Shown here: in pieces, positions 46,111 through 57,980 of the stretch
Layout of the letters: each line of letters begins with the position of its first letter
How positions within the stretch are numbered: position 1 is the stretch's first letter
Source: an uncultured Eubacteriales bacterium
Lineage (GTDB): Bacteria > Bacillota > Clostridia > RGIG6154
DNA length: 64,000 nt
Assembly (NCBI GenBank): GCA_964492155.1
Contig: CAZBJD010000001.1
Coordinates: 5,729-69,728 of the forward strand
Direction: 5' to 3'
Position numbers and translations under genes: made by a program
Notes under the pieces: generated by a model
Told to the model about the DNA's origin: nothing
What the model saw: only the letters and a program-made list of their open reading frames with translations
Database searches by the model: none

Positions 46111-47379
46111 ATGAGCAAACAAATTAAAATTTCAGCCCCAAAAGGTACACATGATATTTTACCTGCTGATGTACATATTTGGCAATATGTAGAAAAATGT
46201 ATATATGACGTATGCAAAAATTTCGGTTATAATGAAATCAGATTTCCTGTTTTTGAACAAACTGATTTGTTTAACAGAGGAGTAGGAGATACTACGGATG
46301 TTGTGCAGAAGGAGATGTACACTTTTACAGATAAGGGTGACAGAAGTATCACACTTCGTCCTGAAGGTACTGCTTCAACTGTAAGAAGTTATCTTGAAAA
46401 CAATCTATACAATGCACCTGCTCCGGTCAAACTTTTCTATATTATTACTTGCTATCGCTACGAAAGACCTCAGGCGGGCAGATTTCGTGAATTCAGACAG
46501 TTTGGGGTGGAAAATTTTGGCAGTAGCAATCCCCGTACTGACACTGAAGTAATTTCTCTTGCTATGAGTTTATTAAAAAAACTTGGAATTGAAGATTTAA
46601 CACTTTATATAAATTCTATCGGTTGTGCAGAATGTCGTAAAAAATACAATGAACTTTTAAAAACGTACTTGTCGGAACATAGCAGTGAGCTTTGCGAGTT
46701 ATGCAATGACCGCATTGGACGAAATCCTCTCCGAGTGTTGGATTGTAAGAATGGCGATTGCAGAAATGTTATAAATTATGCTCCGACTGTTGATACGGTA
46801 TTGTGCGACGAATGCAAAAATCACTTTGAAACTTTAAAAAGTTCTTTAACTGATATTGGAATTGATTTTGTTGTAGACAATACCTTGGTTAGAGGTCTTG
46901 ATTATTACACAAAAACCGTATTTGAAATCAAATCTTCTGATCTTGGTGCACAATCAACTGTTTGCGGCGGCGGTAGATATGATGGCTTGGTGGAACAATT
47001 AGGTGGTTCATCAACTCCCGGAATTGGTTTTTCTGTTGGATTAGAACGTCTGATAGATGTTTTAACCAAAAAAGGTCTTTTACCTGAACCGCAGAATGAT
47101 ATTACGTTGTTTGTAGCTTCTATTGGTGAACTCGCTACTAATTTTGCATTTAAATTAGTTACACAATTAAGAAGATTAGGTGTTTCCGCTGAATTTGATC
47201 ATTTAAATCGTTCCGTAAAAGCACAATTAAAATATGCAGATAAATTAAATGCTAAATATAGCTTGGTACTTGGTGATGACGAAATTAAATCAGGTGTCGC
47301 TGTTATTAAAAATATGTATAGCGGTGAAAACAAAGAAATTAAGATAGATGAACTATCTGCCGAAACTTTAAACTTTTAA
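46111..47379 (+). CDS. hisS: Histidine--tRNA ligase.
   Basis: Class II aaRS motifs, HisRS N-terminal …GTHDILP…RPEGTAS…. Confidence 0.9.
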   Translation: MSKQIKISAPKGTHDILPADVHIWQYVEKCIYDVCKNFGYNEIRFPVFEQTDLFNRGVGDTTDVVQKEMYTFTDKGDRSITLRPEGTASTVRSYLENNLYNAPAPVKLFYIITCYRYERPQAGRFREFRQFGVENFGSSNPRTDTEVISLAMSLLKKLGIEDLTLYINSIGCAECRKKYNELLKTYLSEHSSELCELCNDRIGRNPLRVLDCKNGDCRNVINYAPTVDTVLCDECKNHFETLKSSLTDIGIDFVVDNTLVRGLDYYTKTVFEIKSSDLGAQSTVCGGGRYDGLVEQLGGSSTPGIGFSVGLERLIDVLTKKGLLPEPQNDITLFVASIGELATNFAFKLVTQLRRLGVSAEFDHLNRSVKAQLKYADKLNAKYSLVLGDDEIKSGVAVIKNMYSGENKEIKIDELSAETLNF

Positions 47380-47394
47380 TTGTTGGAGGTTTTT

Positions 47395-47730
47395 ATGAAA
47401 ATTACAGAGGTTAAAGAAATTTTAAATGCAGAAATTGTATGTGGCGAGGAGTTAATTGATGAAGAAGTATTTTCTGCATGCGGATGTGATCTTATGAGTG
47501 ATGTTCTTGCTTTTGTCAAAAATCAAGGGTTATTACTTACCGGATTAAATAATCCGCAGGTTGTCAGGACAGCTTTTATGATGGATATGAAAGCAATTGT
47601 GTTTGTCCGTGGTAAAAATCCTGACGATGAAGTAGTACAATTGGCAAAACTTAAAGATATTATCTTATTAAAGACTGATGAACGGTTATATGCAGCTTGC
47701 GGAAAGCTTTATAATGCAGGATTAGTTTAA
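47395..47730 (+). CDS. Small DRTGG-like domain protein.
   Basis: About 112 aa. ATG after TTGGAGG. Paralogous in outline to 49489-49818. Confidence 0.5.
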   Translation: MKITEVKEILNAEIVCGEELIDEEVFSACGCDLMSDVLAFVKNQGLLLTGLNNPQVVRTAFMMDMKAIVFVRGKNPDDEVVQLAKLKDIILLKTDERLYAACGKLYNAGLV

Positions 47731-47757
47731 TATCGTTGTCAGGGAAGAGGGATAAAT

Positions 47758-48189
47758 TTGGAAAACTCAAATTTGAAACTACACTATGATATTGATAAAA
47801 AAGATTTTATAAATGCTGGCGAGGCATCAAGTTCCGTGAAAAAAGTATTGAGGAAATTAGGTGTAAATCCTGATTGCATCCGAAATCTTGCCATTGCTAT
47901 GTATGAGGCTGAAATTAATATGGTTATTCATGCCAACGGCGGAACTATCGATGTTGAAATTTCCCCGGAATGCATCCATGTTGTTTTGGCAGATAGCGGT
48001 CCCGGGATATCCGATCTTAACCTTGCTATGCAGGAGGGATACTCTACTGCAGGCGATAGCGTTAGAGAGTTGGGTTTTGGAGCCGGGATGGGGTTGCCCA
48101 ATATTAAAAAATACGCTGATGATTTAAAAATTACTACTGAAATTGGTGTTGGTACCACTGTTGAAATCAAAGTAAACATTCCTTCTTAA
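47758..48189 (+). CDS. GHKL ATPase-like protein, anti-sigma regulatory factor (serine kinase) type.
   Basis: HATPase_c N/G-box-like (…EAEINMVIHANGG…DSGPGI…GFGAGMGLPNI…). No HisKA domain. Confidence 0.6.
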   Translation: MENSNLKLHYDIDKKDFINAGEASSSVKKVLRKLGVNPDCIRNLAIAMYEAEINMVIHANGGTIDVEISPECIHVVLADSGPGISDLNLAMQEGYSTAGDSVRELGFGAGMGLPNIKKYADDLKITTEIGVGTTVEIKVNIPS

Positions 48190-48200
48190 GATAGGAGAAT

Positions 48201-49475
48201 ATGATTATGAATAAGTATTTTCACTCTGTTACTTTGGATAAGGACTTATGCAAAGGATGTACTAATTGTCTGAAACATTGTCCAACTGAAGCGATTAGAA
48301 TCAGGAATTCTAAAGCTAAAATTATAAAGGAACGTTGTATAGATTGCGGTGAGTGTATCCGCATTTGTCCATATCATGCTAAGAAGGCGATTACTGATGA
48401 GTATGATAAGATTTTTGATTATAAATACAAAATTGCTTTGCCTGCACCGGCTTTTTACGCTCAATACAATGAAATTAATATTGAAATTTTACTTTATGCT
48501 CTTGAACTTCTTGGGTTCGACGAAGTCAGGGAGGTTACACTCGGTGCAGACATTATTTCTTCCAAAACGAATGATTTATTGGCTAAAGACAGTTCTGTTA
48601 AGCCGCTGATAAGTTCATCATGTCCGGCAATCGTCAGACTTATCAAAATACGATTTCCAAGTTTAATTGATAATATTTTGCCACTGCAAAGTCCTTTAGA
48701 CATTGTTGCCAAAAAGGCAAAATTTGAAAGTGCTGAACGGCTTAAACTTGCCCCTGGCGATGTTGGAGTTTTTTTCATTTCGCCATGTGCCGCAAAAGTT
48801 ACTAGTTGTAAAGCTCCGATTGGCATTTCCGAATCTTATGTAGACGGGGTTATTTCTATCGCCGACATTGTTCGTGAAATCGCACCTTTTTATTCAAAAT
48901 TAACAACAAGTTCTCATTCTACAATTTCAACCTCGTCGGGGATTGGCTGGGCAAAAAGCGGGGGTGAAAGTCAAAAACTTAGCTCATATAACAGTATTGC
49001 AGTTGATGGCGTAAAGAACGTTATCAAAGTTCTCGAAGATTTAGAGGATGATAAAATTGTCGACATTGACTTCATAGAATGTTGTGCGTGTACCGGAGGA
49101 TGTGTTGGTGGACCATTGACTGTAAATAATACATACGTTGCCCAGGCAAATATAAAGAAACTTATGAAAAAATACGAACGTACGCCATATATTGATGATG
49201 TTAATATTGATGATATTTCGCTTACATCACAAATCGAATGTGAACCAATTTTAAAATTGAGTTCTAACATGGCGGAGTCAATAAAAATGATGGATGAGAT
49301 CGACAAACTTATAGATAAACTTCCAGGGCTTGATTGTGGCTCTTGCGGAGCACCGTCATGTACGGCTTTGGCTGAAGATGGAGTTAAAGGTTTTGCCAAA
49401 GAATCAGACTGTATATTTATTTATAAGGAAAAATTAAAATTTATAATGAACGAAATGAATCATCTTGAAGAATAA
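48201..49475 (+). CDS. [FeFe]-hydrogenase-like protein with altered H-cluster motifs. Putative sensory or regulatory.
   Basis: Two CxxCxxCxxxCP motifs. H-domain L1 SSSCP, L2 SPCAAK and L3 ECCACTGGCVGG. C-terminal CGSCGAPSC. Confidence 0.7.
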   Translation: MIMNKYFHSVTLDKDLCKGCTNCLKHCPTEAIRIRNSKAKIIKERCIDCGECIRICPYHAKKAITDEYDKIFDYKYKIALPAPAFYAQYNEINIEILLYALELLGFDEVREVTLGADIISSKTNDLLAKDSSVKPLISSSCPAIVRLIKIRFPSLIDNILPLQSPLDIVAKKAKFESAERLKLAPGDVGVFFISPCAAKVTSCKAPIGISESYVDGVISIADIVREIAPFYSKLTTSSHSTISTSSGIGWAKSGGESQKLSSYNSIAVDGVKNVIKVLEDLEDDKIVDIDFIECCACTGGCVGGPLTVNNTYVAQANIKKLMKKYERTPYIDDVNIDDISLTSQIECEPILKLSSNMAESIKMMDEIDKLIDKLPGLDCGSCGAPSCTALAEDGVKGFAKESDCIFIYKEKLKFIMNEMNHLEE

Positions 49476-49488
49476 GGGAGTATAGCGT

Positions 49489-49818
49489 ATGCTTGTTAAA
49501 GATATTATTGAAAAGCTTGGTGCACAGATTGTTAATGAAGGTGATTTACTGCAACGTGATATTACCGGATGTTACATAGGCGATCTGCTCAGTTGGGTTA
49601 TGGCAAATGCCAGAGAAGGTGATATTTGGCTTACAATTATGTCGAATGTCAATGTTGTTGCTGTTGCAACACTCACTGATATATCTTGTGTTTTAATGTG
49701 CGAAAACGTCGTGCCTGATGAAGATTGTCTTATTCGTGCCAGGGAACAGGGGATTACAATTTTAAAAACTCCGTTATCTGCATATCAGGCTGCGGTTATA
49801 CTTGGTAATATATTATGA
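49489..49818 (+). CDS. Second small DRTGG-like protein.
   Basis: 109 aa. Overlaps the PHP gene start (ATGA). Confidence 0.45.
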   Translation: MLVKDIIEKLGAQIVNEGDLLQRDITGCYIGDLLSWVMANAREGDIWLTIMSNVNVVAVATLTDISCVLMCENVVPDEDCLIRAREQGITILKTPLSAYQAAVILGNIL

Positions 49819-50507
49819 AACTTTATTATGATTTACATATACATTCTGCGTTGTCCCCCTGCGGAGATAACGATATGACACCTAACAACATTGTCAATAT
49901 GTCCATTCTCAAAGGGTTGGATGTTATTGCTGTTTCTGACCACAACAGTATTAAAAATTTGCACGCTGTTTTTGAGGTTGCAAAAAACACCAACTTAATT
50001 GTAATTCCCGCTATGGAAATTGAAACTTCAGAAAATGTGCATATGTTAACTTTATTTCGAGATATGGATGCTGCAGAAAATGCTTATAACAGGATATATA
50101 CATTGCTGCCGGATATTAAAAACGAAAAAGAAATATTCGGTGAACAGCTTGTTATTAACTCAAAGGATGAAATTGTCGATTACGAAGAAAAGCTTTTGGT
50201 TAATTCAGCCAATATTGATATTGCTGAATTAGTCGAGTTAGTAAATAGTGTTGACGGTGTGGTAATACCTGCTCACGTCGACAGAAGTTCTTATAGCATA
50301 TTATCAAATCTCGGCACCGTTCCTGACCTGGGATTTAGACGCATAGAACTGTCGAAAAATGCTGATGAGAAAATGTACGAATATCTTGGCTATGAGTTTA
50401 TAAGAAATTCAGACGCACACTATTTGTATGACATTTTTGAGGCTGAAAACTATTTGGAATGTACGGAAAAATCAATAAATTCGTTTTTTGACGCTATTTT
50501 AAAATGA
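49815..50507 (+). CDS. PHP-domain phosphoesterase.
   Basis: YYDLHIHSALSPCGD…VIAVSDHN PHP motifs. Confidence 0.7.
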   Translation: MKLYYDLHIHSALSPCGDNDMTPNNIVNMSILKGLDVIAVSDHNSIKNLHAVFEVAKNTNLIVIPAMEIETSENVHMLTLFRDMDAAENAYNRIYTLLPDIKNEKEIFGEQLVINSKDEIVDYEEKLLVNSANIDIAELVELVNSVDGVVIPAHVDRSSYSILSNLGTVPDLGFRRIELSKNADEKMYEYLGYEFIRNSDAHYLYDIFEAENYLECTEKSINSFFDAILK

Positions 50508-50535: not shown

Positions 50536-50561
50536 GATTTTTGAATAATTATGTGATATAA
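50536..50561 (+). promoter_or_regulatory. Extended -10 promoter for the hydrogenase operon.
   Basis: TGaTATAAT (50553-50561) with a weak -35. Confidence 0.35.
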
Positions 50562-50606
50562 TCTAGCTTAGACAATTATGTAAATATAATTTAAGGAGGC
50601 ATAAAG

Positions 50607-51101
50607 ATGTCAGATAAAAAACTACCTGCTTTTCAGGGGACTAAAGAGCAGGAAGCACAGCTTATGGAGGTTATTAATAAACATAAGCAGTCTAAGGGAG
50701 CCCTTATCCCGGTTTTACATGAAGCTCAGGAAATATATGGATATCTTCCGATTGAGGTTCAAACAATCATTGCAGAGGAACTGGATTTGCCGCTTGCAGA
50801 AGTATATGGTGTTGTTACATTTTATACTCAGTTCTCGCTTTATCCGAAGGGACAGTACAAAATTGCTGTCTGTCTTGGAACAGCATGCTATGTAAAAGGT
50901 TCAGGCGATCTCTTGGATAAAATCAAAGAAATCCTTAGAATTGACGTAGGGGAATGTACTCCTGACGGTAAATTTTCACTTGAAGCTACTCGCTGTATTG
51001 GTGCATGCGGCTTAGCTCCTGTATTAACTGTAAATGATGATGTTTATGGCAGACTTGTTGTTGATGATATTCCGGGCATTATTGAAAAGTATCAGAATTA
51101 A
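50607..51101 (+). CDS. hydC: NuoE-like [2Fe-2S] subunit of the bifurcating hydrogenase.
   Basis: Thioredoxin-like fold with the conserved Cys pattern (…CLGTACYVKG…CIGACGLAP…). Confidence 0.85.
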   Translation: MSDKKLPAFQGTKEQEAQLMEVINKHKQSKGALIPVLHEAQEIYGYLPIEVQTIIAEELDLPLAEVYGVVTFYTQFSLYPKGQYKIAVCLGTACYVKGSGDLLDKIKEILRIDVGECTPDGKFSLEATRCIGACGLAPVLTVNDDVYGRLVVDDIPGIIEKYQN

Positions 51102-51106
51102 TTAAA

Positions 51107-51649
51107 ATGAAAGAATTATCATTAAATATACTTGATATTGCGGAGAATTCTATAGCTGCTAATGCTACAATTGTCGAAATCAAGATATCCGAACAAGTGT
51201 CCGAAAACTTGCTTGTTATTACTATTTCAGATAACGGCAAAGGTATGAGTGAAGATTTCTTAAAAAACGTTACCGATCCTTTTTCCACCACCAGAAACAC
51301 AAGAAAAGTGGGAATGGGGATATCTTTGTTAAAACTCATAACTGAACAGTCCAACGGTACATTTAGTATATCGTCAAAAGTCGGTGAGGGGACTTGTGTT
51401 AAAGCTATGTTTCAATATAATCACATTGACAGACCTCCGCTCGGAAATATTGAACAAACAATATCTACGCTTGTTTCTTGTAATTTAAATGTTAATTTTG
51501 TTTATGAACACACTTTCAATGACAAAAAATTCACAATGAACACCAAAGAAATCGATGAAATTCTCCGGGGTATACCGCCTAATAATCCGGATGTTATATT
51601 GTGGATGCAAAGTTATATCAGGGAAGGAATTGATAGTATTTCTTTCTGA
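51107..51649 (+). CDS. Histidine-kinase-like ATPase (HATPase_c only) embedded in the hydrogenase operon.
   Basis: …ITISDNGKGM…GMGISLL… G-boxes with no phospho-acceptor domain. Confidence 0.7.
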   Translation: MKELSLNILDIAENSIAANATIVEIKISEQVSENLLVITISDNGKGMSEDFLKNVTDPFSTTRNTRKVGMGISLLKLITEQSNGTFSISSKVGEGTCVKAMFQYNHIDRPPLGNIEQTISTLVSCNLNVNFVYEHTFNDKKFTMNTKEIDEILRGIPPNNPDVILWMQSYIREGIDSISF

Positions 51650-51710
51650 AACCAATTTGTTAAATATTATTATGCTGAATGTTTTCGTTCGGCAAGATAG
51701 GAGTTTAAAT

Positions 51711-52082
51711 ATGAAAAGTTTAGCAGATTTAGAAGCGATTAGACAAAAAACAATAAATAGGGTTAATTTAAGAAATGAATCTGAAGACAGCACACGTATC
51801 GTCGTTGGTATGGCAACTTGCGGTATAGCTGCAGGTGCACGTCCTGTTATGCAGGCTTTTGTTGAAGAAATTAACAAAAGAAACTTATCAGACACATATG
51901 TAGCTCAGACAGGTTGCATTGGTCTTTGCAAGTACGAACCTATTGTTGAAGTATACACTTCTGGCAAAGAAAAAGTTACTTATGTTAAAGTAACTCCGGA
52001 AAAAGTAGCTAAAATCGTTGCAGAACATATTGTTAATGGTAAAGTTGTTGACGAATACACTATTGGCGCTGCTGAAAAGTAA
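51711..52082 (+). CDS. Thioredoxin-like [2Fe-2S] ferredoxin (HydD-like).
   Basis: Start at MKSLADL after AGGAG (ORF-track start 51555). …MATCGIAAGA…GCIGLCKYEP…. Confidence 0.7.
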   Translation: MKSLADLEAIRQKTINRVNLRNESEDSTRIVVGMATCGIAAGARPVMQAFVEEINKRNLSDTYVAQTGCIGLCKYEPIVEVYTSGKEKVTYVKVTPEKVAKIVAEHIVNGKVVDEYTIGAAEK

Positions 52083-52124
52083 TTTTACATAACGCTATTG
52101 GTGTGTTGAAATGGAGGAAAGAAA

Positions 52125-53915
52125 ATGGAACTTGTAAGATCTCATGTTTTGGTTTGCGGTGGTACCGGTTGTACATCTTCCGGATCTACACAAATCATTG
52201 ATGAATTTGAAAAACAACTTAAAAATTTTAATATTGATAACGAAGTTAAAGTTGTTAAAACTGGTTGCTTTGGTTTGTGTGCTTTAGGACCGATTGTTAT
52301 CATATATCCTGAAGGTTCATTTTATAGCATGGTTAAAACCGAAGATGTTGCTGAAATTGTTGAACAGCACTTACTTAAAGGTAAAATTGTTAAGAGATTG
52401 CTTTATAAAGAGACTATTGAAGAAGATAATATCAAGTCTCTTAATGAAGTTGATTTCTATAAAAAACAACTTCGTGTTGCTTTGAGAAATTGCGGTGTAA
52501 TTAATCCGGAAGATATTGATGAATATATTGCACAAGACGGTTATAAAGCACTTGGTAAGGTTCTTACCGAAATGACACCGGAAGAAGTTATTAATGTTGT
52601 AAAGGAATCCGGTTTGCGTGGCCGTGGAGGCGGTGGTTTCCCCACAGGTGTTAAATGGAGTTTTGCTGCACAACAAGTTAATGAACAAAAATATGTTCTT
52701 TGTAATGCCGACGAAGGTGACCCGGGTGCATTTATGGATAGATCTATTCTCGAAGGTGACCCTCACAGCTTAATTGAAGCTATGTCGATAGCAGGTTATG
52801 CAATTGGTGCTAATCAGGGTTATGTATACGTAAGAGCTGAATATCCGATCGCTGTGCACAGACTCAATGTTGCAATAAAGCAGGCTAGAGAATACGGTTT
52901 ACTTGGTAATAACATCTTTGGAACTGATTTTTCATTTGATCTTGAAATCCGTCTTGGTGCCGGTGCGTTTGTTTGTGGTGAAGAAACTGCTCTTATCACT
53001 TCTATTGAAGGACATAGAGGTGAACCTAGACCAAGACCGCCATTCCCGGCAGTTAAAGGTCTTTGGGGCAAGCCTTCAATTCTTAATAACGTTGAAACTT
53101 ATGCAAATATTCCTGTTATCTTCCTTAAAGGGGTAGATTGGTTTACTTCTATCGGTACAGAAAAGAGCAAAGGAACTAAAGTATTTGCCTTAGGTGGTAA
53201 GATTAACAATACCGGTTTGGTTGAAGTGCCAATGGGCACAACTTTAAGAGAAGTTGTATACGAAATTGGCGGTGGAATTCCTAACGGAAAGAAATTCAAA
53301 GCTGCTCAGACCGGCGGTCCCTCAGGCGGATGTATCCCTGCTGAACTAATCGATACACCTATCGATTATGATTCACTTATCAGCATTGGTTCTATGATGG
53401 GTTCAGGCGGACTTATCGTAATGGATGAAGATACCTGTATGGTTGATATTGCAAAATTCTTCCTTGAATTTACTGTTGATGAATCATGCGGTAAATGTGT
53501 TCCTTGTCGTATTGGTACAAAGAGAATGCTTGAAATTCTTACTAAAATTACTAACGGACAAGGTACTCTTGAAGATATCGATAAGTTGGAACAACTTTGT
53601 CTTTCAGTTAAGAGCAGTGCATTGTGCGGTCTTGGTCAGACAGCTCCAAACCCAATTTTAAGCACACTCAAATACTTCAGACATGAATATGAAGAACACG
53701 TTGTTGAGAAGAAATGCCGTGCAGGCGTTTGTAAGGCACTTCTCAGCTATGTAATTGATGCTGATAAATGTATTGGTTGCGGAATTTGTGCAAGAAATTG
53801 TCCTGTTTCTGCAATCACAGGAAAAATTAAAGAACCGTTTGTTATTGATACTGCTAAGTGCGTAAAATGCGGTCTTTGTGAAACAAAATGTCCTAAAAAG
53901 GCAATCAGCAAATAA
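52125..53915 (+). CDS. hydB: NuoF-like NADH/FMN-binding subunit with N-terminal and C-terminal Fe-S domains.
   Basis: GRGGGGFPTGVKW FMN site, NADH site, and C-terminal 2x[4Fe-4S] CxxCxxCxxxCP. Confidence 0.9.
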   Translation: MELVRSHVLVCGGTGCTSSGSTQIIDEFEKQLKNFNIDNEVKVVKTGCFGLCALGPIVIIYPEGSFYSMVKTEDVAEIVEQHLLKGKIVKRLLYKETIEEDNIKSLNEVDFYKKQLRVALRNCGVINPEDIDEYIAQDGYKALGKVLTEMTPEEVINVVKESGLRGRGGGGFPTGVKWSFAAQQVNEQKYVLCNADEGDPGAFMDRSILEGDPHSLIEAMSIAGYAIGANQGYVYVRAEYPIAVHRLNVAIKQAREYGLLGNNIFGTDFSFDLEIRLGAGAFVCGEETALITSIEGHRGEPRPRPPFPAVKGLWGKPSILNNVETYANIPVIFLKGVDWFTSIGTEKSKGTKVFALGGKINNTGLVEVPMGTTLREVVYEIGGGIPNGKKFKAAQTGGPSGGCIPAELIDTPIDYDSLISIGSMMGSGGLIVMDEDTCMVDIAKFFLEFTVDESCGKCVPCRIGTKRMLEILTKITNGQGTLEDIDKLEQLCLSVKSSALCGLGQTAPNPILSTLKYFRHEYEEHVVEKKCRAGVCKALLSYVIDADKCIGCGICARNCPVSAITGKIKEPFVIDTAKCVKCGLCETKCPKKAISK

Positions 53916-53931
53916 AGGAGGTAAGTTGATA

Positions 53932-55671
53932 ATGGAAAATGTTACTCTTAAAATTAATAATATAGAAGTCACAGTTCCTGCTGACTATACAATTTTACAG
54001 GCAGCAAGAAGCGCGAATATCGACATCCCTACGCTTTGCTACCTTGAAGGATTAAACAAACTCGGTTCTTGTCGTTTGTGCGTTGTTGAAATTAAAGGTG
54101 CAAGAGCTCTTCAGGCAGCTTGCGTATATCCAGTAGCAGAGGGAATAGAAGTATTCACAAATACTCCTGCTGTACGAAAAGCAAGAAAAGCTAATTTAGA
54201 GCTTATTCTTTCAAATCATGACAGAAAATGTCTCACTTGTACCAGAAACAGAAATTGTGAACTTCAGGCATTGGCTGATGAATTTGGCATTGAAGATTTA
54301 GGATTTACAGGTGAAAATGATCCGAAGCTTCCTATCGAAGATTCTTCAACATCATACATTCGCGATAACAACAAATGCGTGCTTTGCAGACGTTGTGTTG
54401 CAGCTTGTGATAATCAGGCAGTTTCAGTTATTTCATGCATAAACAGAGGTTTTGCAACAACTGTTGGTACTGCTTTTGAAAAACCTGTTTCAGAAGTTGC
54501 ATGTATTTTCTGCGGACAGTGTATCAATGCTTGTCCCACAGGTGCTTTAACAGAAAAAAGTCATATTCCTCAGGTTTTGGAAGCCATTGATAATGCTGAA
54601 AAACATGTTGTTGTGCAGACTGCTCCGGCAGTTCGTGCAGCTCTTGGCGAGGAGTTCGGATTACCGATGGGTACCCCTGTTACAGGTAAAATGGTAACCG
54701 CTCTCAAGATTCTTGGTTTTGATAAAGTTTTCGACACAGACACTGCTGCTGACCTTACAATTATGGAAGAGGGAACAGAGTTTATTGAAAGATTTACTAA
54801 ACAGGAAAAATTACCGCTTATTACTTCATGCAGCCCCGGTTGGGTCAAGTATTGCGAACACTTTTTCCCAGAATTTACTGACAATCTTTCTTCAGCAAAA
54901 TCACCTATGGAAATGTTTGGCGCTGTAATCAAATCATATTATGCCGAAAAGAATAATATTGACAAAAAAGATATTTATTCTGTTGCAGTTATGCCATGTA
55001 CTTCTAAGAAATACGAAATTCAGAGAGAAGAAATGTCAAGCAGTGGTGCAGCTGATATTGATGCTTCACTTACAACACGTGAGCTTGCCAGAATGATTAA
55101 ACAGGCAGGTATCAATTTTGCCGATCTTCCTGATTCGGAATTTGACGATCCATTTGGCAATGCTACAGGTGCCGGAGTAATTTTTGGTGCTACTGGTGGT
55201 GTTATGGAAGCTGCAATCAGAACCGTTTACGAAGTTTTGGAAGGCAAATCGCTTGAAAATCTTGAACTTGCTCCAATTCGTGGAATGGACGGAATTAAAG
55301 AAGCAACTCTTACTATAAAAGGTAATGATGTTAAGATTGCTGTAGTTCATGGCACAAAAAATGCAAAAGAATTGCTTACAAAGATTAAAGCAGGTGAAGC
55401 AAAATATGATTTCATTGAAATTATGGCTTGCCCGGGCGGTTGTGTAAATGGTGGCGGTCAGCCAATTGTTCCCGCCAAAGAACAAGCTTTAATTGATGTT
55501 AGGGTAGAGAGAGCAAAAGCACTTTATGCCGAAGACAGAAATTCTGCATTGAGAAAATCTCACGAAAATCCTGCAATCAAGAAGCTTTATGAAGAATACT
55601 TTGAAAAACCATGTTCACATAAAGCTCATGAACTTTTGCATACTCATTATACAAAGAGAAGCAAATATTAA
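53932..55671 (+). CDS. hydA: [FeFe]-hydrogenase catalytic subunit, with a NuoG-like N-terminal region.
   Basis: L2 MPCTSKKYE, L3 EIMACPGGCVNGGGQP, L1 reads TSCSPGW. Start at MENVTL (ORF-track start 53878). Confidence 0.9.
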   Translation: MENVTLKINNIEVTVPADYTILQAARSANIDIPTLCYLEGLNKLGSCRLCVVEIKGARALQAACVYPVAEGIEVFTNTPAVRKARKANLELILSNHDRKCLTCTRNRNCELQALADEFGIEDLGFTGENDPKLPIEDSSTSYIRDNNKCVLCRRCVAACDNQAVSVISCINRGFATTVGTAFEKPVSEVACIFCGQCINACPTGALTEKSHIPQVLEAIDNAEKHVVVQTAPAVRAALGEEFGLPMGTPVTGKMVTALKILGFDKVFDTDTAADLTIMEEGTEFIERFTKQEKLPLITSCSPGWVKYCEHFFPEFTDNLSSAKSPMEMFGAVIKSYYAEKNNIDKKDIYSVAVMPCTSKKYEIQREEMSSSGAADIDASLTTRELARMIKQAGINFADLPDSEFDDPFGNATGAGVIFGATGGVMEAAIRTVYEVLEGKSLENLELAPIRGMDGIKEATLTIKGNDVKIAVVHGTKNAKELLTKIKAGEAKYDFIEIMACPGGCVNGGGQPIVPAKEQALIDVRVERAKALYAEDRNSALRKSHENPAIKKLYEEYFEKPCSHKAHELLHTHYTKRSKY

Positions 55672-55679
55672 GATCAACA

Positions 55680-55736
55680 AATTCGGGCAGATACATAAAA
55701 ATCGGTGTTTGCCCGAATTTTTATGATTTTTTATAA
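55680..55736 (+). terminator. Intrinsic terminator of the hyd operon.
   Basis: aattcgggca/tgcccgaatt stem followed by a T-run. Confidence 0.6.
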
Positions 55737-55744
55737 AAAATGTA

Positions 55745-55773
55745 TTGATTTTTTGTATAAGTTGTGTTATAAT
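55745..55773 (+). promoter_or_regulatory. SigmaA promoter for rpmE.
   Basis: TTGATT - 17 nt - TGtTATAAT. Confidence 0.45.
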
Positions 55774-55805
55774 ATTCCTGTTATTTAATGAAAGAGGTGA
55801 AAATC

Positions 55806-56012
55806 ATGAAAGAAGGATTGCATCCTGATTATCAGACTGCTACTGTGAAATGCGCTTGTGGTGAAACATTTGAAACCAGATCTACTAAAAAAGATATTTC
55901 TATAGAAATTTGTTCAAAATGTCATCCGTTCTATACCGGTAAACAGAAGATTGTTGATGCTGGTGGACGTGTTGATAAATTCAGAAAGAAATTCAATTTG
56001 GAGTCTAAATAA
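55806..56012 (+). CDS. rpmE: 50S ribosomal protein L31.
   Basis: MKEGLHPDY…CxxC…C.KCHPFYTG. Start after GAGGTG (ORF-track start 55788). Confidence 0.9.
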
Positions 56013-56039
56013 TCCATTTCATTTTAAGTTGTAGCTATG

Positions 56040-56084
56040 CACCTGTTTGAAGTTTAATAACTTTAACAGGTGCTTTAAATTTAT
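56040..56084 (+). terminator. Intrinsic terminator after rpmE.
   Basis: gcacctgtt/aacaggtgc followed by a T-rich tail. Confidence 0.6.
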
Positions 56085-56155
56085 AGGGGATGACTTATTT
56101 TTAAACACGAAGTCGTCAATGTTTACAATTGTGTATTGTTAATAAGTCAAAATGT

Positions 56156-56207
56156 CCAACAGAAATTTTTTTGGCATAGATTTGATTGTTTTTAAAATTT
56201 CTGTTGG
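56156..56207. repeat. 14-bp perfect inverted repeat with a 24-nt spacer.
   Basis: ccaacagaaatttt … aaaatttctgttgg. Confidence 0.6.
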
Positions 56208-56268
56208 CTCCGACAGGGATTAATAATATAGTATATTTTTTATTCAGAATTTATGTGGGGTGTAGAGG

Positions 56269-56297
56269 TTGACATTTGATAAAATTTGTGATACAAT
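56269..56297 (+). promoter_or_regulatory. Near-consensus sigmaA promoter for the recombinase gene.
   Basis: TTGACA - 17 nt - TGaTACAAT. Confidence 0.5.
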
Positions 56298-56338
56298 TAT
56301 ACAAAATAAAAATTTTGTATAATTGAGGTGAGGGTTAA

Positions 56339-57310
56339 ATGGGGTTTAATATATCAGAACAACCATTGGTTTACAAAGAGTTTCTTATGTATATGCAAAC
56401 CATACGCGGTAAATCAATTGGTACAATTTCCGAATACGCATTAGATTTAAATATCTTTTTTAAATTTATGGTTCGTCATTTTGATACATCTGTATCATCT
56501 GAAATTGATGAAATTGACATCAGTAATCTTAACTACGATTTCGTAAAAAAAATTCAACTCACAGACATCTACGAATATCTTTCTTATATGAACACTGTCA
56601 GAAAAAATTCTGCTGCAACGCGTGCTCGCAAAGTTGCATGTTTGAGAAGCTATTTTAAGTATATGCATAGCAAAGCGAAATATATCAATGATAATCCAAC
56701 AAAAGAATTGGAATCTCCAAAGCTTAAGCAATCGCTGCCTAATTATCTGACTTTAGAGGAATCCAAAACTTTGTTGGAAACCGTTTTGAAAAACTCAAAT
56801 GGATATCGTGACTATGCGATTATTACCTTATTTCTCAATTGCGGAATGCGGTTGTCTGAGTTAGTTGGAATTAACTTGACTGATATTAAAAATGACACAT
56901 TAATTGTCACAGGTAAAGGCAACAAAGAACGAACAATATATTTAAACAACGCTTGCATTCAGGCAATCGCAAAATATTTAAAAGAGCGACCCGTGGATAA
57001 CGTTAAAGATAAAAATGCTTTATTTTTAAGTGCTCGTAACCAAAGAATAAGTAACAAGACTGTCCAGCATCTTGTAAAAAAATATTTACAGCTTGCAGGG
57101 CTTGATACAACACGCTTTTCTACTCACAAACTCAGACATACTGCAGCTACATTAATGTATCGTGAAGGAAATACCGATTTGCGGACACTGCAAGAAATCT
57201 TAGGTCATGAACACCTATCAACCACGCAGATATATACACATGTTAACGATCGGCAACAAAAAAATGCTATGGAAAATAACCCATTAGCAAATATAGTCAC
57301 AACTGAATAA
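56339..57310 (+). CDS. Tyrosine site-specific recombinase (XerC/XerD-like).
   Basis: Catalytic R…HKLRHTAAT…LGHEHLSTTQIYTHV (R-H-R-Y pattern). N-terminal SAM-like domain. Confidence 0.8.
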   Translation: MGFNISEQPLVYKEFLMYMQTIRGKSIGTISEYALDLNIFFKFMVRHFDTSVSSEIDEIDISNLNYDFVKKIQLTDIYEYLSYMNTVRKNSAATRARKVACLRSYFKYMHSKAKYINDNPTKELESPKLKQSLPNYLTLEESKTLLETVLKNSNGYRDYAIITLFLNCGMRLSELVGINLTDIKNDTLIVTGKGNKERTIYLNNACIQAIAKYLKERPVDNVKDKNALFLSARNQRISNKTVQHLVKKYLQLAGLDTTRFSTHKLRHTAATLMYREGNTDLRTLQEILGHEHLSTTQIYTHVNDRQQKNAMENNPLANIVTTE

Positions 57311-57313
57311 ATC

Positions 57314-57349
57314 AAGGAGATGATTTTTATAGTCATCTCCCTTTTTTTC
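57314..57349. terminator. Bidirectional intrinsic terminator between the recombinase and amidase genes.
   Basis: ggagatga/tcatctcc stem followed by T7. Confidence 0.65.
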
Positions 57350-57353
57350 AGGG

Positions 57354-57926
57354 CTACAATCGATTGTATCCAAAGAAATTCAATATGCCGTCGTAAATTG
57401 CAGCTGCAAATTCATATTGGTCATTTTTAAGTTTTTCTGCATCTCCCGGATTAGTTATAAATGCAAGCTCAATTAACATTGCCGGCATTTGTGTCCTTCT
57501 CAACACGAAAAATGTTTTATTAATTTTAACACCATTGTTCTTAGTTCCAAGTTGAGTGGTGATTTGTGTTAAAATGTTTTCTGCCATATAATAAATCGGT
57601 GTTCCTTCGCTATATACATATATTTCTGTACCGTTAAATACAGGATTTTCAGCAGCGTTAGCGTGTATACTGATAAAGTAGTCCGCCCCCCAGGAATTCG
57701 CCATATTGACTCTTTCTTGAAGACTGCTTGTATTGTTATATCCCAACGAATCTGTAGGTGTATTTCTTGATGTTATTGCATCAAACCGATAATCACTGTT
57801 AAGTAAATCTCTTAAAAAAATACCGACATTGTATGTTACATCTTGTTCTCTGAGCCCGTTACCTTCTGCGCCGGCATTAACATTTTCAGGATTATGCCCC
57901 TGATCAATAAAAATTTTAATTGCCAT
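57354..57926 (-). CDS. N-acetylmuramoyl-L-alanine amidase (Amidase_3), CwlD-like.
   Basis: …IFIDQGHNP…ISIHANA… Zn-ligand blocks. Start at MAIKIF after GGGAGAG (the ORF track extends to 57968). Confidence 0.75.
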   Translation of the reverse strand: MAIKIFIDQGHNPENVNAGAEGNGLREQDVTYNVGIFLRDLLNSDYRFDAITSRNTPTDSLGYNNTSSLQERVNMANSWGADYFISIHANAAENPVFNGTEIYVYSEGTPIYYMAENILTQITTQLGTKNNGVKINKTFFVLRRTQMPAMLIELAFITNPGDAEKLKNDQYEFAAAIYDGILNFFGYNRL

Positions 57927-57980
57927 TATATCTCTCCCTTTCAATATTAATATATTTAAATTTATCAAAAAAGTGAGAAC

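What the first reader, a model, noticed from the sequence alone, without database searches (positions are those of the whole stretch)
50607..55671. HydC - GHKL-like ATPase - ferredoxin-like - HydB - HydA operon
The gene order is: a NuoE-like subunit, a histidine-kinase-like ATPase with no HisKA domain, a thioredoxin-like [2Fe-2S] ferredoxin, a NuoF-like subunit, and the H-cluster subunit. This matches the NADH/ferredoxin electron-bifurcating trimeric hydrogenase loci of thermophilic Clostridia and Thermotoga. Such loci carry an embedded kinase-like gene of unknown role.

Two different GHKL-only proteins (47758 and 51107) are therefore dedicated to this locus. The 51107 gene has no recognisable SD sequence, so it may be translationally coupled to hydC.
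Basis: partly seen in the sequence, partly recalled or inferred. Interest (0 to 1): 0.5.

Follow-up and report, generated by a model that had tools for sequence, protein, structure and literature searches.

The report
Bifurcating hydrogenase operon with embedded regulator
This is an ordinary operon for a four-subunit NADH-plus-ferredoxin [FeFe] hydrogenase of a type already known from thermophilic Clostridia. The small kinase-like gene inside it is most likely not an enzyme subunit but the last member of a widespread, uncharacterised signalling gene set, which in other bacteria sits in front of other ferredoxin/NADH enzyme operons.

Summary
Window 50607-55671 encodes hydC (NuoE-like), a 180-aa GHKL ATPase, hydD (thioredoxin-like [2Fe-2S] ferredoxin, true start 51711), hydB (NuoF-like) and hydA (H-cluster subunit, true start 53932). 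A consensus extended -10 lies upstream and a strong terminator hairpin downstream.

The gene order is identical to Caldanaerobacter hydC-tte0891-hydD-hydB-hydA, and C. thermocellum Cthe_0338-0342 likewise has a histidine-kinase-annotated second gene. So the locus is a new member of a known kind. It is the tetrameric HydABCD type, not the trimeric type.

The new information concerns the embedded GHKL gene:
- It defines a compact family of about 180 aa with intact ATP-binding motifs and a family-specific C-terminal extension. The predicted fold is closest to MutL/GyrB ATPase domains.
- It has weak or no Shine-Dalgarno sequences across 80 loci, whereas the structural genes have strong ones.
- In 160 related loci it follows either hydC or the PHP gene of a DRTGG-GHKL-(HydS)-DRTGG-PHP cassette, which the window carries at 47380-50507.
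- It precedes not only HydD/B/A but also Rnf, Bcd/Etf, NuoEF-type formate dehydrogenase and Hdr/Mvh-like operons.

Published purifications found HydABCD without it. It is most likely a low-abundance ATP-dependent regulator. The mechanism is inferred, not shown.

The parts
47380..47730 (+). DRTGG-domain protein 1, first gene of the upstream regulatory cassette. The likely ATG is at 47395. It abuts hisS, which ends at 47379.
   Evidence: Pfam DRTGG, E 1.8e-7. Present in 46 of 60 related loci that have at least 4.5 kb of upstream sequence. Ser40 invariant and Thr54 in 99% of sequences.
47758..48189 (+). SpoIIAB/RsbW-like GHKL protein of 143 aa. This is the 'second' GHKL.
   Evidence: Pfam HATPase_c_2, E 3.9e-12. 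NCBIfam spIIAB E 1.8e-14, below the equivalog cut-off. N-box and G-boxes are invariant across 92 sequences. 24% identity to the 51107 protein.
48201..49475 (+). HydS-like putative sensory [FeFe] hydrogenase. It has 2x[4Fe-4S], an H-domain and a C-terminal PF04060 FeS domain, and no PAS domain.
   Evidence: Pfam Fe_hyd_lg_C E 1e-34, Fer4, and FeS PF04060 E 6.2e-10. The P1 motif is SSSCP: the first Cys of TSCCP is replaced.
49489..49818 (+). DRTGG-domain protein 2.
   Evidence: Pfam DRTGG, E 5.6e-8. Invariant D32, S35, T49 and N55.
49815..50507 (+). PHP-family phosphoesterase. It overlaps the DRTGG2 stop (ATGA).
   Evidence: Pfam PHP, E 3.8e-8. Candidate metal-ligand residues (H8, H10, E68, H76, H154, D200, H202) are invariant in 113 sequences. 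It is the immediate upstream neighbour of the GHKL-180 gene in 73 of 160 related loci.
50554..50562 (+). Candidate extended -10 promoter element, TGATATAAT, 44 nt before the hydC ATG.
   Evidence: Read directly from the sequence. This is a consensus match only. The -35 is weak, so the automatic scan did not list it.
50607..51101 (+). hydC, the NuoE-like [2Fe-2S] subunit.
   Evidence: Pfam 2Fe-2S_thioredx, E 3.8e-52. Strong SD AAGGAGG, -11.1 kcal/mol.
51107..51649 (+). GHKL-180: a stand-alone GHKL ATPase with a family-specific C-terminal extension. It occupies the position of Tte0891 and Cthe_0339.
51711..52082 (+). hydD, a thioredoxin-like [2Fe-2S] ferredoxin subunit of 123 aa.
   Evidence: NCBIfam 2Fe-2S ferredoxin, E 1.7e-14. 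PDB relatives: Aquifex Fd4 (1f37) and the N-terminal domains of NfnB/HoxF. SD AGGAG. Gene call of 123 aa on Logan contigs.
52125..53915 (+). hydB, the NuoF-like FMN/NADH subunit, with an N-terminal [2Fe-2S] domain and a C-terminal 2x[4Fe-4S].
   Evidence: Pfam. End-to-end match to the HydB chain of PDB 7q4v (the A. woodii bifurcating HydABC, by my recollection), residues 4-596 against 4-598, E 5.8e-297.
53932..55671 (+). hydA, the H-cluster subunit of 579 aa.
   Evidence: NCBIfam NF040763, 909 bits against a cut-off of 765. P1 TSCSPGW, P2 MPCTSKKYE, P3 EIMACPGGCVNGGGQP. The P1 variant is shared with 46/46 related HydA and with HydA1 of PDB 7q4v.
55672..55735 (+). Intrinsic terminator: a 16-bp stem plus 5 outer pairs, followed by a U-rich tract.
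   Evidence: RNA fold -24.6 kcal/mol, z -6.3, 0 of 200 shuffles as stable. It was missed by the automatic scan because its loop exceeds 8 nt.

Best explanation
Window 50554-55735 is one transcription unit for a Caldanaerobacter-type heterotetrameric HydABCD [FeFe] hydrogenase. This enzyme couples NADH and reduced ferredoxin to H2 (electron confurcation / bifurcation).

The second gene (51107-51649, 'GHKL-180') is not a catalytic subunit. It is the operon-proximal member of a conserved signalling gene set that starts at 47380: DRTGG, SpoIIAB-like GHKL, HydS-like sensory hydrogenase, DRTGG, PHP phosphoesterase, and then GHKL-180.

It is made in small amounts, by re-initiation 5 nt after the hydC stop, with no Shine-Dalgarno sequence. 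It binds ATP through an intact Bergerat fold.

The following step is inferred. It acts as a protein kinase or ATP-dependent switch which, opposed by the PHP phosphoesterase and informed by HydS (H2 or redox), sets the activity state of the NuoE/NuoF-type electron-input module, or of a DRTGG or REC intermediary.

The operon identity and the non-subunit, regulatory status are well supported. The kinase/phosphatase chemistry and its target are inferred.
For: Operon identity:
- Domain content and NCBIfam assignment.
- HydB matches the HydB chain of PDB 7q4v end to end, E 5.8e-297.
- HydA is closest to the HydA1 chain of 7q4v.
- Intergenic gaps are 5, 61, 42 and 16 nt, and only two weak terminator-like hits inside coding sequence were listed on the + strand.
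- A strong terminator follows hydA directly.
- The order is identical to hydC-tte0891-hydD-hydB-hydA (PMC4694547) and parallels Cthe_0338-0342 (PMC3990059).

Not a subunit:
- The native Caldanaerobacter enzyme is reported as HydA-D only. The recombinant His-HydC enzyme was reported as 325 kDa (HydABCD)2, even though Tte0891 was co-expressed with a strong RBS (PMC4694547).
- In 80 loci the median anti-SD duplex energy is -4.6 kcal/mol for GHKL-180, with 44% at or below -6. For HydC/D/B/A it is -9.6 to -11.3, with 88-100% at or below -6.

ATP binding:
- D10, N14, D42xG44xG46, G69xG71 and G95-T96 are invariant or nearly so in 157 distinct sequences.
- The AF2 model is confident and has a GHKL fold.

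Membership of the signalling set:
- The upstream neighbour is PHP in 73 and HydC in 68 of 160 loci.
- The whole cassette can lie between hydC and GHKL-180, as in L002, L023 and L048.
- GHKL-180 can precede hydC (19 loci).
- It stays with the cassette when no hydrogenase follows.
- 48 of 60 loci with enough upstream sequence carry at least DRTGG plus PHP.
- One natural PHP::GHKL-180 fusion exists.

Phospho-signalling flavour:
- The PHP candidate metal ligands are invariant.
- Both DRTGG proteins keep an invariant Ser and a Thr (99-100% conserved).
- The SpoIIAB-like GHKL has intact catalytic boxes.
- REC domains occur next to GHKL-180 in other phyla, including a REC::NuoE fusion.
Against: - No kinase or ATPase activity, substrate or phenotype has been reported for any member that I could find.
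- The residue at the general-base position is Asp10 rather than Glu.
- There is no DHp/HisKA domain, and the conserved HIDRPPLG segment is predicted to be a loop.
- 12 of 60 loci have GHKL-180 with no cassette within about 8 kb, so it can work without nearby cassette genes.
- The fusion is a single 2.4-kb contig.
- Co-transcription and translational coupling are inferred from spacing, not measured.
- That Tte0891 and Cthe_0339 belong to this exact family rests on position and annotation. Their sequences were not compared here.
- The 160 loci are the most similar hits of two searches and were annotated by tblastn with window proteins, so the counts are a biased sample.
Confidence: 0.55

Rival explanations
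1. GHKL-180 is an ATP-dependent assembly or maturation chaperone of the GHL/Hsp90 type for the NuoE/NuoF/RnfC-type flavin and iron-sulfur modules of these complexes. It would not be a signal transducer.
For: The best structural neighbours are MutL, GyrB/ParE, Topo VI-B and Hsp90-family ATPase domains. HydABCD, Rnf and the NuoEF-type Fdh share a NuoF/RnfC-type module. Low expression fits a catalytic helper. Some loci have GHKL-180 alone in front of rnfC with no cassette: L028, L042, L068.
Against: It is tightly linked to PHP, DRTGG, the SpoIIAB-like GHKL and HydS, which are signalling-type proteins. It has no transducer or client-binding domain and no N-terminal strap; the protein starts at the N-box helix. 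Bcd/Etf and Hdr/Mvh-like targets lack a NuoF module.
Confidence: 0.15
2. GHKL-180 and the SpoIIAB-like GHKL act at the level of gene expression. In a partner-switching circuit, the DRTGG proteins would play the anti-anti-sigma role and PHP the phosphatase role. The circuit would control transcription of the downstream operon through a sigma factor or regulator encoded elsewhere.
For: The upstream GHKL is SpoIIAB/RsbW-like. The set contains two GHKLs, two small DRTGG proteins with an invariant Ser, and one phosphoesterase. GHKL-180 always sits at the 5' edge of the regulated genes, with gaps of 106-444 nt before rnfC.
Against: No sigma factor or DNA-binding protein was recognised within the cassette in the window or the examined loci. 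In the window type, GHKL-180 lies inside the operon between two structural genes. No Rex-type operator was found above chance.
Confidence: 0.15
3. GHKL-180 is the ATP-binding half of a split or non-canonical histidine kinase. It autophosphorylates on the nearly invariant His106 and passes the phosphoryl group to a REC domain.
For: By sequence the core is closest to the NtrB/KinB/ZraS-type CA domains. H106-I-D-R-P-P-L resembles the HisKA H-box, H-E-L-R-T-P-L (the H-box consensus is from my own knowledge). REC genes are adjacent in L012, L102 and L089, including a REC fused to the NuoE-like subunit.
Against: The H106 segment is predicted to be a loop, not a DHp helix. There is no REC gene in the window or in most loci.
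Confidence: 0.1
4. GHKL-180 is a genuine fifth, stoichiometric subunit that makes hydrogenase turnover ATP-dependent.
For: It is embedded between structural genes and lies only 5 nt after hydC. In the first sample hydD was the next gene in all 62 loci with a hydrogenase downstream.
Against: Purified native and recombinant enzymes were reported as HydABCD only (PMC4694547). SD sequences are systematically weak. The same family occurs with Rnf, Bcd/Etf, Fdh and Hdr/Mvh-like operons, and also with no enzyme operon next to it.
Confidence: 0.05

Closest known systems
Caldanaerobacter subterraneus (Thermoanaerobacter tengcongensis) NADH-dependent [FeFe] hydrogenase operon hydC-tte0891-hydD-hydB-hydA (Soboh 2004; Kelly 2015, PMC4694547)
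   Same: It has the same five genes in the same order, with four FeS/flavin subunits. The extra ORF sits between hydC and hydD and is not part of the purified (HydABCD)2 enzyme.
   Different: The window comes from a mesophile-like, low-GC (35%) uncultured Clostridia lineage. The Tte0891 sequence itself was not compared here. The window has the full DRTGG-GHKL-HydS-DRTGG-PHP cassette directly upstream.
Clostridium thermocellum Cthe_0338-0342 bifurcating hydrogenase cluster, with Cthe_0339 annotated as histidine kinase (PMC3990059)
   Same: A five-gene cluster whose second gene is annotated as a histidine kinase.
   Different: This is known only at the annotation and transcript level. No function has been assigned.
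Structurally solved electron-bifurcating HydABC. Assignment of PDB codes to organisms is from my recollection: A. woodii 7Q4V/8A5E, T. kivui 8A6T, T. maritima 7P5H
   Same: HydB aligns end to end (E 5.8e-297 to 7q4v_B). HydA shares the TSCSPGW variant of the P1 motif with 7q4v_A.
   Different: Those enzymes are named HydABC and their deposited chains matched only the window's HydA and HydB; no chain resembling the embedded GHKL protein was found. A. woodii HydD is described as having no cofactor (PMC6288185), whereas the window's HydD is a thioredoxin-like [2Fe-2S] ferredoxin. That domain is described as fused to the C-terminus of HydA in T. maritima (PMC6163223).
Putative sensory [FeFe] hydrogenases: HydS; HydDB group C1 'histidine-kinase-linked'; the PAS-less M2e type such as Thermoanaerobacter mathranii HydS (PMC8163306); and the Vallitalea guaymasensis Rnf-linked sensor (PMC6163223)
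   Same: The window has a HydS-like gene without a PAS domain next to histidine-kinase-like ATPase genes and upstream of a bifurcating hydrogenase. The association of such a sensor plus 'kinase' with an rnf operon has already been remarked on for Vallitalea.
   Different: Those papers do not separate the two GHKL families. They do not describe the DRTGG/PHP partners or the wider range of target operons. HydDB classification was not run here.
SpoIIAB-SpoIIAA-SpoIIE / RsbW-RsbV-RsbU partner switching
   Same: Small stand-alone GHKL Ser-kinase-like proteins, small partner proteins with an invariant Ser, and a dedicated phosphoesterase.
   Different: The partners are DRTGG rather than STAS, and the phosphoesterase is PHP rather than PP2C. 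No sigma factor is encoded nearby. GHKL-180 does not match HATPase_c_2.
Mitochondrial PDK/BCKDK with their phosphatases (GHKL kinases that switch redox multienzyme complexes)
   Different: GHKL-180 has no N-terminal four-helix bundle and no demonstrated phosphorylation. This is an analogy, not homology beyond the shared fold.
MutL/GyrB/Topo VI-B N-terminal ATPase domains (GHL branch)
   Different: GHKL-180 has no transducer domain, no N-terminal strap and no DNA-related context.

Membership tests
Multimeric NADH/ferredoxin-dependent (group A3-type, HydABC(D)) [FeFe] hydrogenase | HydA with an H-domain carrying the P1, P2 and P3 cysteine motifs, plus an N-terminal [2Fe-2S] and [4Fe-4S] F-domain. 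| tested here: met
   Fe_hyd_lg_C E 2.2e-104, Fe_hyd_SSU, Fer2_4 and NADH-G_4Fe-4S_3. NF040763 above its cut-off. P2 MPC..K..E and P3 E.M.C..GC..G.GQP are present. P1 is TSCSPGW, as in HydA1 of PDB 7q4v.
Multimeric NADH/ferredoxin-dependent (group A3-type, HydABC(D)) [FeFe] hydrogenase | HydB: a NuoF-like FMN/NADH module with the extra N-terminal [2Fe-2S] and C-terminal 2x[4Fe-4S] domains of bifurcating enzymes. | tested here: met
   Pfam domains at residues 5-81, 159-330, 441-525 and 542-595. Full-length alignment to the HydB chain of 7q4v. The number of FeS centres is named as a discriminating criterion in PMC7311640.
Multimeric NADH/ferredoxin-dependent (group A3-type, HydABC(D)) [FeFe] hydrogenase | HydC: a NuoE-like [2Fe-2S] subunit encoded with HydA and HydB. 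| tested here: met
   2Fe-2S_thioredx, E 3.8e-52.
Multimeric NADH/ferredoxin-dependent (group A3-type, HydABC(D)) [FeFe] hydrogenase | H2 evolution requires NADH and reduced ferredoxin together (confurcation). | not testable with these tools
   This needs an enzyme assay.
GHKL (Bergerat-fold) ATPase superfamily (protein at 51107) | N-box Asn, G1 DxGxG, G2 GxxGxG and a Bergerat alpha/beta sandwich. | tested here: met
Two-component sensor histidine kinase (protein at 51107) | A HisKA/DHp dimerisation domain with a phospho-accepting His N-terminal to the CA domain. | tested here: not met
   No HisKA match. The protein begins at the N-box helix. The H106 segment is predicted to be a loop.
Two-component sensor histidine kinase (protein at 51107) | An adjacent cognate response regulator. 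| tested here: not met
   There is none in the window between 42.5 and 58 kb. REC genes are adjacent only in a minority of distant loci.
SpoIIAB/RsbW anti-sigma Ser kinases (HATPase_c_2) | A match to HATPase_c_2 or the spIIAB/rsbW models. | tested here: inconclusive
   The protein at 47758 matches HATPase_c_2 (E 3.9e-12) and spIIAB (54 bits), but below the equivalog cut-off of 135. The protein at 51107 does not match HATPase_c_2 and hits spIIAB only weakly (35 bits).
MutL/GyrB-type GHL ATPases (protein at 51107) | An ATPase domain followed by a transducer domain that supplies a Lys to the gamma-phosphate, and an N-terminal strap for ATP-driven dimerisation. | tested here: not met
   The 180-aa protein ends after the ATPase domain and has no N-terminal extension. 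Only the ATPase domain aligns, about 140 residues.
Sensory [FeFe] hydrogenase HydS (protein at 48201) | An H-domain that retains the cluster-binding Cys residues but has lost the first Cys of the TSCCP motif. | tested here: met
   SSSCP in the window and SSACP in most relatives. SPC and CxxGC motifs are present. The role of that Cys as a proton relay is from my own knowledge and PMC8163306.
Sensory [FeFe] hydrogenase HydS (protein at 48201) | A C-terminal PAS domain (the T. maritima / R. albus / HfsB type, M2f). | tested here: not met
   There is no PAS match. The C-terminus is a PF04060 FeS domain instead. It resembles the PAS-less type described in PMC8163306.

The most novel reading that the evidence does not exclude
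GHKL-180, the PHP phosphoesterase, the two DRTGG proteins and the SpoIIAB-like GHKL may form a widespread and so far uncharacterised post-translational control system. Optional inputs would be HydS, small FeS proteins or CBS domains. The system would control the enzymes that set the ferredoxin/NAD(H) balance in anaerobes: HydABC(D), Rnf, Bcd/Etf, NuoEF-type formate dehydrogenase and Hdr/Mvh-like hydrogenases. Functionally this would be a bacterial counterpart of pyruvate-dehydrogenase kinase/phosphatase control, with H2 or redox state as the signal.
Probability: 0.25. Interest if true: 0.7.

Novelty: new member of a known kind. Interest (0 to 1): 0.4.

Why it matters
The hydrogenase itself adds nothing new. 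The embedded gene is present in at least 597 species representatives and in industrially studied H2 and ethanol producers (C. thermocellum, Caldanaerobacter). It has been carried along in synthetic operons without any assigned role.

If it is the output element of an H2- or redox-responsive switch acting on several ferredoxin/NADH complexes, it would explain how fermenters re-route electrons between H2, NADH and ion-gradient formation. It would also give metabolic engineers a handle on H2 and ethanol yields.

The comparative data here turn 'kinase-like gene of unknown role' into specific, cheap experiments.

Tried and rejected
1. Hidden DHp/H-box. The conserved H106-IDRPPLG looked like the HisKA H-box, but AF2 predicts a loop and a single compact domain. 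I rejected it as a DHp and kept it only as a minor rival.

2. C-terminal extension as a domain known elsewhere. There is no Pfam or PDB sequence match. A phmmer search of residues 101-180 against 1.84 billion representatives found 510 hits. Virtually all of the 150 listed are at the same position of proteins of about 180 aa, or in shorter fragments. The domain is therefore family-specific.

3. Rex operator upstream of hydC or the cassette. The pattern TTGTTAANNNNTTAACAA with up to 3 mismatches gave 18 hits against 20 expected, and none lies in the promoter regions.

4. Equivalence of the upstream cassette with hfsABCD of Thermoanaerobacterium. The architecture is different (PAS-HydS, a serine phosphatase, HydA2; PMC11837493), so I rejected this.

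5. Internal terminators or promoters that split the operon. There are only weak consensus hits inside coding sequence.

6. Zheng et al. 2014 (R. albus HydS) could not be read because it is not held.

7. P0141 (HtpG N-terminus joined to a GHKL-180 body) and P0121 (repeat protein) were judged chimeric or spurious.

Full report
**1. What is in the window**

ORF listing and domain searches show five co-directional genes:
- hydC, 50607-51101: NuoE-like, 2Fe-2S_thioredx, E 3.8e-52.
- A 180-aa GHKL protein, 51107-51649: HATPase_c E 4.6e-16 and HATPase_c_3 E 3.7e-9, with no HisKA, sensor or membrane domain.
- hydD: a thioredoxin-like [2Fe-2S] ferredoxin.
- hydB, 52125-53915: NuoF-like, with an N-terminal [2Fe-2S] and a C-terminal 2x[4Fe-4S].
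- hydA: the H-cluster subunit.

The mechanical ORF starts of hydD and hydA are too long. ATG 51711 (AGGAG upstream) and ATG 53932 (AAAGGAGG upstream) are the plausible starts. Independent gene calls on two Logan contigs that carry the identical GHKL protein agree for hydD and call the same genes from the HydS-like gene onward.

HydA scores 909 bits against NCBIfam NF040763, 'NADH-dependent [FeFe] hydrogenase, group A6' (cut-off 765). HydB aligns end to end with the HydB chain of PDB 7q4v, which I recall as the A. woodii bifurcating enzyme (E 5.8e-297).

**2. Operon boundaries**

- A perfect extended -10 (TGATATAAT, 50554-50562) lies 44 nt before hydC. This is a consensus match only.
- Internal gaps are 5, 61, 42 and 16 nt. 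The only + strand terminator-like hits inside the operon are two weak ones within coding sequence.
- A hairpin of -24.6 kcal/mol (z -6.3) followed by a U-tract comes directly after hydA.
- The next gene, rpmE, has its own promoter-like site.
- No Rex-type operator stands out above chance.

**3. The 'no SD' claim**

The hydC stop is followed by 5 nt and then ATG 51107. The anti-SD duplex energy upstream is +0.2 kcal/mol, against -6.8 to -13.1 for the four structural genes.

This holds more widely. In 80 related genomic loci the GHKL gene has a median of -4.6 kcal/mol, with 44% at or below -6. HydC, HydD, HydB and HydA have medians of -9.6 to -11.3, with 88-100% at or below -6. This fits a low-abundance product made by re-initiation, not a stoichiometric subunit.

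**4. The GHKL protein as a family**

- A search of 5.8 billion proteins gave 4662 homologues. Nearly all of the 120 listed are 178-186 aa, aligned over at least 96% of the query.
- At least 597 GTDB species representatives encode one. Most are Clostridia, but Deferribacteres, Chloroflexota and Nitrospirota also occur.
- The N-box (D10, N14), G1 (D42xG44xG46), G2 (G69xG71) and G3 (G95-T96) are invariant or nearly so. So is a C-terminal H106-I-D108-R109-x-P111-x-G113 segment.
- By sequence the core is nearest to KinB/ZraS/AtoS-type CA domains.
- The AF2 model (pLDDT 88.7, pTM 0.85) is one compact domain. Residues 115-179 add helix-strand-strand-helix-helix.
- A search with residues 101-180 alone found 510 cluster representatives. 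Virtually all of those listed carry the segment at positions of about 101-178 of proteins of about 180 aa, or are shorter fragments. The extension is therefore family-specific.

**5. Genomic context in 160 related loci**

Counts come from two samples of 80 loci each: a genome sample and a metagenome sample.

| Neighbour of GHKL-180 | Genome sample | Metagenome sample |
|---|---|---|
| Upstream HydC | 52 | 16 |
| Upstream PHP | 24 | 49 |
| Upstream other | 3 | 5 |
| Upstream contig edge | 1 | 10 |
| Downstream HydD | 62 | 34 |
| Downstream HydC | 0 | 19 |
| Downstream RnfC | 11 | 2 |
| Downstream Bcd-EtfBA | 1 | 0 |
| Downstream other | 3 | 13 |
| Downstream contig edge | 3 | 12 |

The PHP gene belongs to a cassette, DRTGG - SpoIIAB-like GHKL - (HydS) - DRTGG - PHP, which the window carries at 47380-50507.

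Of 60 genomic loci with at least 4.5 kb of upstream sequence:
- 40 have the full cassette.
- 6 have it without HydS.
- 2 have only DRTGG plus PHP.
- 12 have none.

The arrangement is shuffled repeatedly:
- The cassette lies upstream of hydC (the window type).
- The cassette is inserted between hydC and the GHKL gene (L002, L023, L039, L048, L053, L058, L065, L077).
- The cassette is divergent.
- PHP-GHKL-hydC-hydD-hydB.
- PHP-GHKL-hydD-hydB-hydA-hydC.

A neighbour-joining tree suggests that the PHP-GHKL-hydD order arose at least three times. In most loci (141 of the 150 whose upstream flank is not cut by a contig edge) the GHKL gene directly follows PHP or hydC, and most often it directly precedes genes of a redox complex.

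**6. Targets other than HydABCD**

Pfam scans confirm the following:
- RnfC-D-G-E-A-B (L007, L008, L011, L020, L028, L042, L062, L063, L068, L072, L079, L108, L112). In L028, L042 and L068 the GHKL gene stands alone before rnfC.
- Acyl-CoA dehydrogenase plus EtfB and a ferredoxin-domain EtfA (L026).
- NuoE/NuoF-type formate dehydrogenase (L012, L105 and others).
- An HdrA-like protein plus FlpD/MvhD and a NiFe small subunit (L152, L143).

All are ferredoxin/NAD(H)-linked, bifurcating or ion-translocating complexes. The Vallitalea genome paper had already remarked on a sensory hydrogenase and a 'sensory histidine kinase' next to rnf (PMC6163223).

**7. Hints of phospho-signalling**

- The PHP candidate metal ligands are invariant in 113 sequences.
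- DRTGG1 and DRTGG2 share an invariant D-[LM]-[LM]-S motif and a Thr (99-100% conserved).
- The SpoIIAB-like GHKL has intact catalytic boxes.
- One natural PHP::GHKL-180 fusion exists, in a FeS-DRTGG-PHP::GHKL locus. It comes from a single short contig.
- In Chloroflexota the SpoIIAB-like GHKL is fused to a CBS pair (L027).
- REC domains occur next to the GHKL gene in L012, L102 and L089, including a REC::NuoE fusion.

**8. Literature**

- Kelly et al. 2015 (PMC4694547) give the native Caldanaerobacter order as hydC, tte0891, hydD, hydB, hydA. They call Tte0891 hypothetical and state that the native enzyme comprises HydA-D. They found a 325-kDa recombinant enzyme, which they interpret as (HydABCD)2, although Tte0891 was co-expressed.
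- C. thermocellum Cthe_0339, inside Cthe_0338-0342, is annotated as a histidine kinase (PMC3990059).
- hfsABCD is a different system (PMC5707799, PMC11837493).
- I found no paper that assigns a function to the embedded GHKL, or that links DRTGG or PHP proteins to hydrogenases.

**9. Interpretation**

Shown:
- The operon, its gene content and its family assignment.
- Conservation of the GHKL gene.
- Its intact nucleotide-binding motifs.
- Its weak translation signals.
- Its linkage to the cassette and to several kinds of target operon.

Taken from the literature:
- It is not part of the purified enzyme.

Inferred:
- It binds ATP and acts as a kinase or switch within a DRTGG/PHP/HydS module.
- Its target is the NuoE/NuoF-type input module or an intermediary.
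- It is co-transcribed with hydC and translationally coupled to it.

**10. Caveats**

- The two locus sets are the 80 best-scoring hits of each search. They were annotated by tblastn with window proteins, and with Rnf, Bcd/Etf and FdhA queries taken from other loci. Flanks are limited to 7-8 kb.
- The Tte0891 and Cthe_0339 sequences were not aligned here.
- The Thermotoga comparison was not tested.

**11. Verdict**

The locus is a new member of a known kind. The embedded GHKL belongs to a large uncharacterised family for which this analysis gives a concrete, testable regulatory hypothesis.

Noticed in passing
window about 54.8 kb (HydA P1 motif); HydA genes in L001-L080: HydA carries TSCSPGW instead of the textbook TSCCPGW of C. 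pasteurianum CpI. The second Cys of the pair, which I recall as a [4Fe-4S] ligand of the H-cluster, is Ser. The same variant is in 45 of 46 related HydA (one has TSCSPAW) and in the HydA1 chain of PDB 7q4v, so it is a clade trait rather than a defect. I did not resolve what replaces the ligand.
   Followed up: partly
L012:1579-3359; L102:3995-4768; L089:6356-6733: Response-regulator receiver domains sit next to the GHKL-180 gene in some non-Clostridia loci. They include a REC+GCV_H-like protein, a REC fused to the NuoE-like subunit, and a stand-alone REC just upstream.
   Followed up: partly
L152:7528-12345 and L143:1881-6707: [quoted passage not shown] This is another flavin-based bifurcating type of complex.
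   Followed up: partly
L081:921-2216 (protein P0252): A natural fusion of the PHP phosphoesterase and GHKL-180 (431 aa), in a locus that reads FeS(PF04060)-DRTGG-PHP::GHKL. It is seen on one 2.4-kb contig only, so a lost stop codon or an assembly error cannot be excluded.
   Followed up: partly
L027:5439-6374: In a Chloroflexota MAG the SpoIIAB-like GHKL of the cassette is fused to a CBS-domain pair and HydS is absent. This suggests that an adenine-nucleotide input replaces H2 sensing.
   Followed up: no
window 47380-47730 and 49489-49818: The two DRTGG proteins share an invariant D-[LM]-[LM]-S motif (Ser40 and Ser35) and a conserved Thr (Thr54 99%, Thr49 100%) across 91 sequences each. These are candidate phosphorylation sites.
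   Followed up: partly
window 46111-47395: hisS (histidyl-tRNA synthetase) ends at 47379, directly abutting the first cassette gene, with no room for a terminator. The cassette may be read through from hisS.
   Followed up: no
window 55745-57968 and the GC-skew profile at 56-58 kb: After the hydA terminator come rpmE (55807-56012, with its own TG-extended promoter-like site), a Xer-like tyrosine recombinase (56339-57310) and a convergent amidase gene. Coding strand and GC skew both change sign at about 57 kb. This is either a simple strand switch or a replication-terminus-like point.
   Followed up: no
protein P0141: A 217-aa protein joins the first ~50 residues of an HtpG/Hsp90-like N-terminus (including its N-box) to the body of GHKL-180. 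It is probably an assembly chimera.
   Followed up: no
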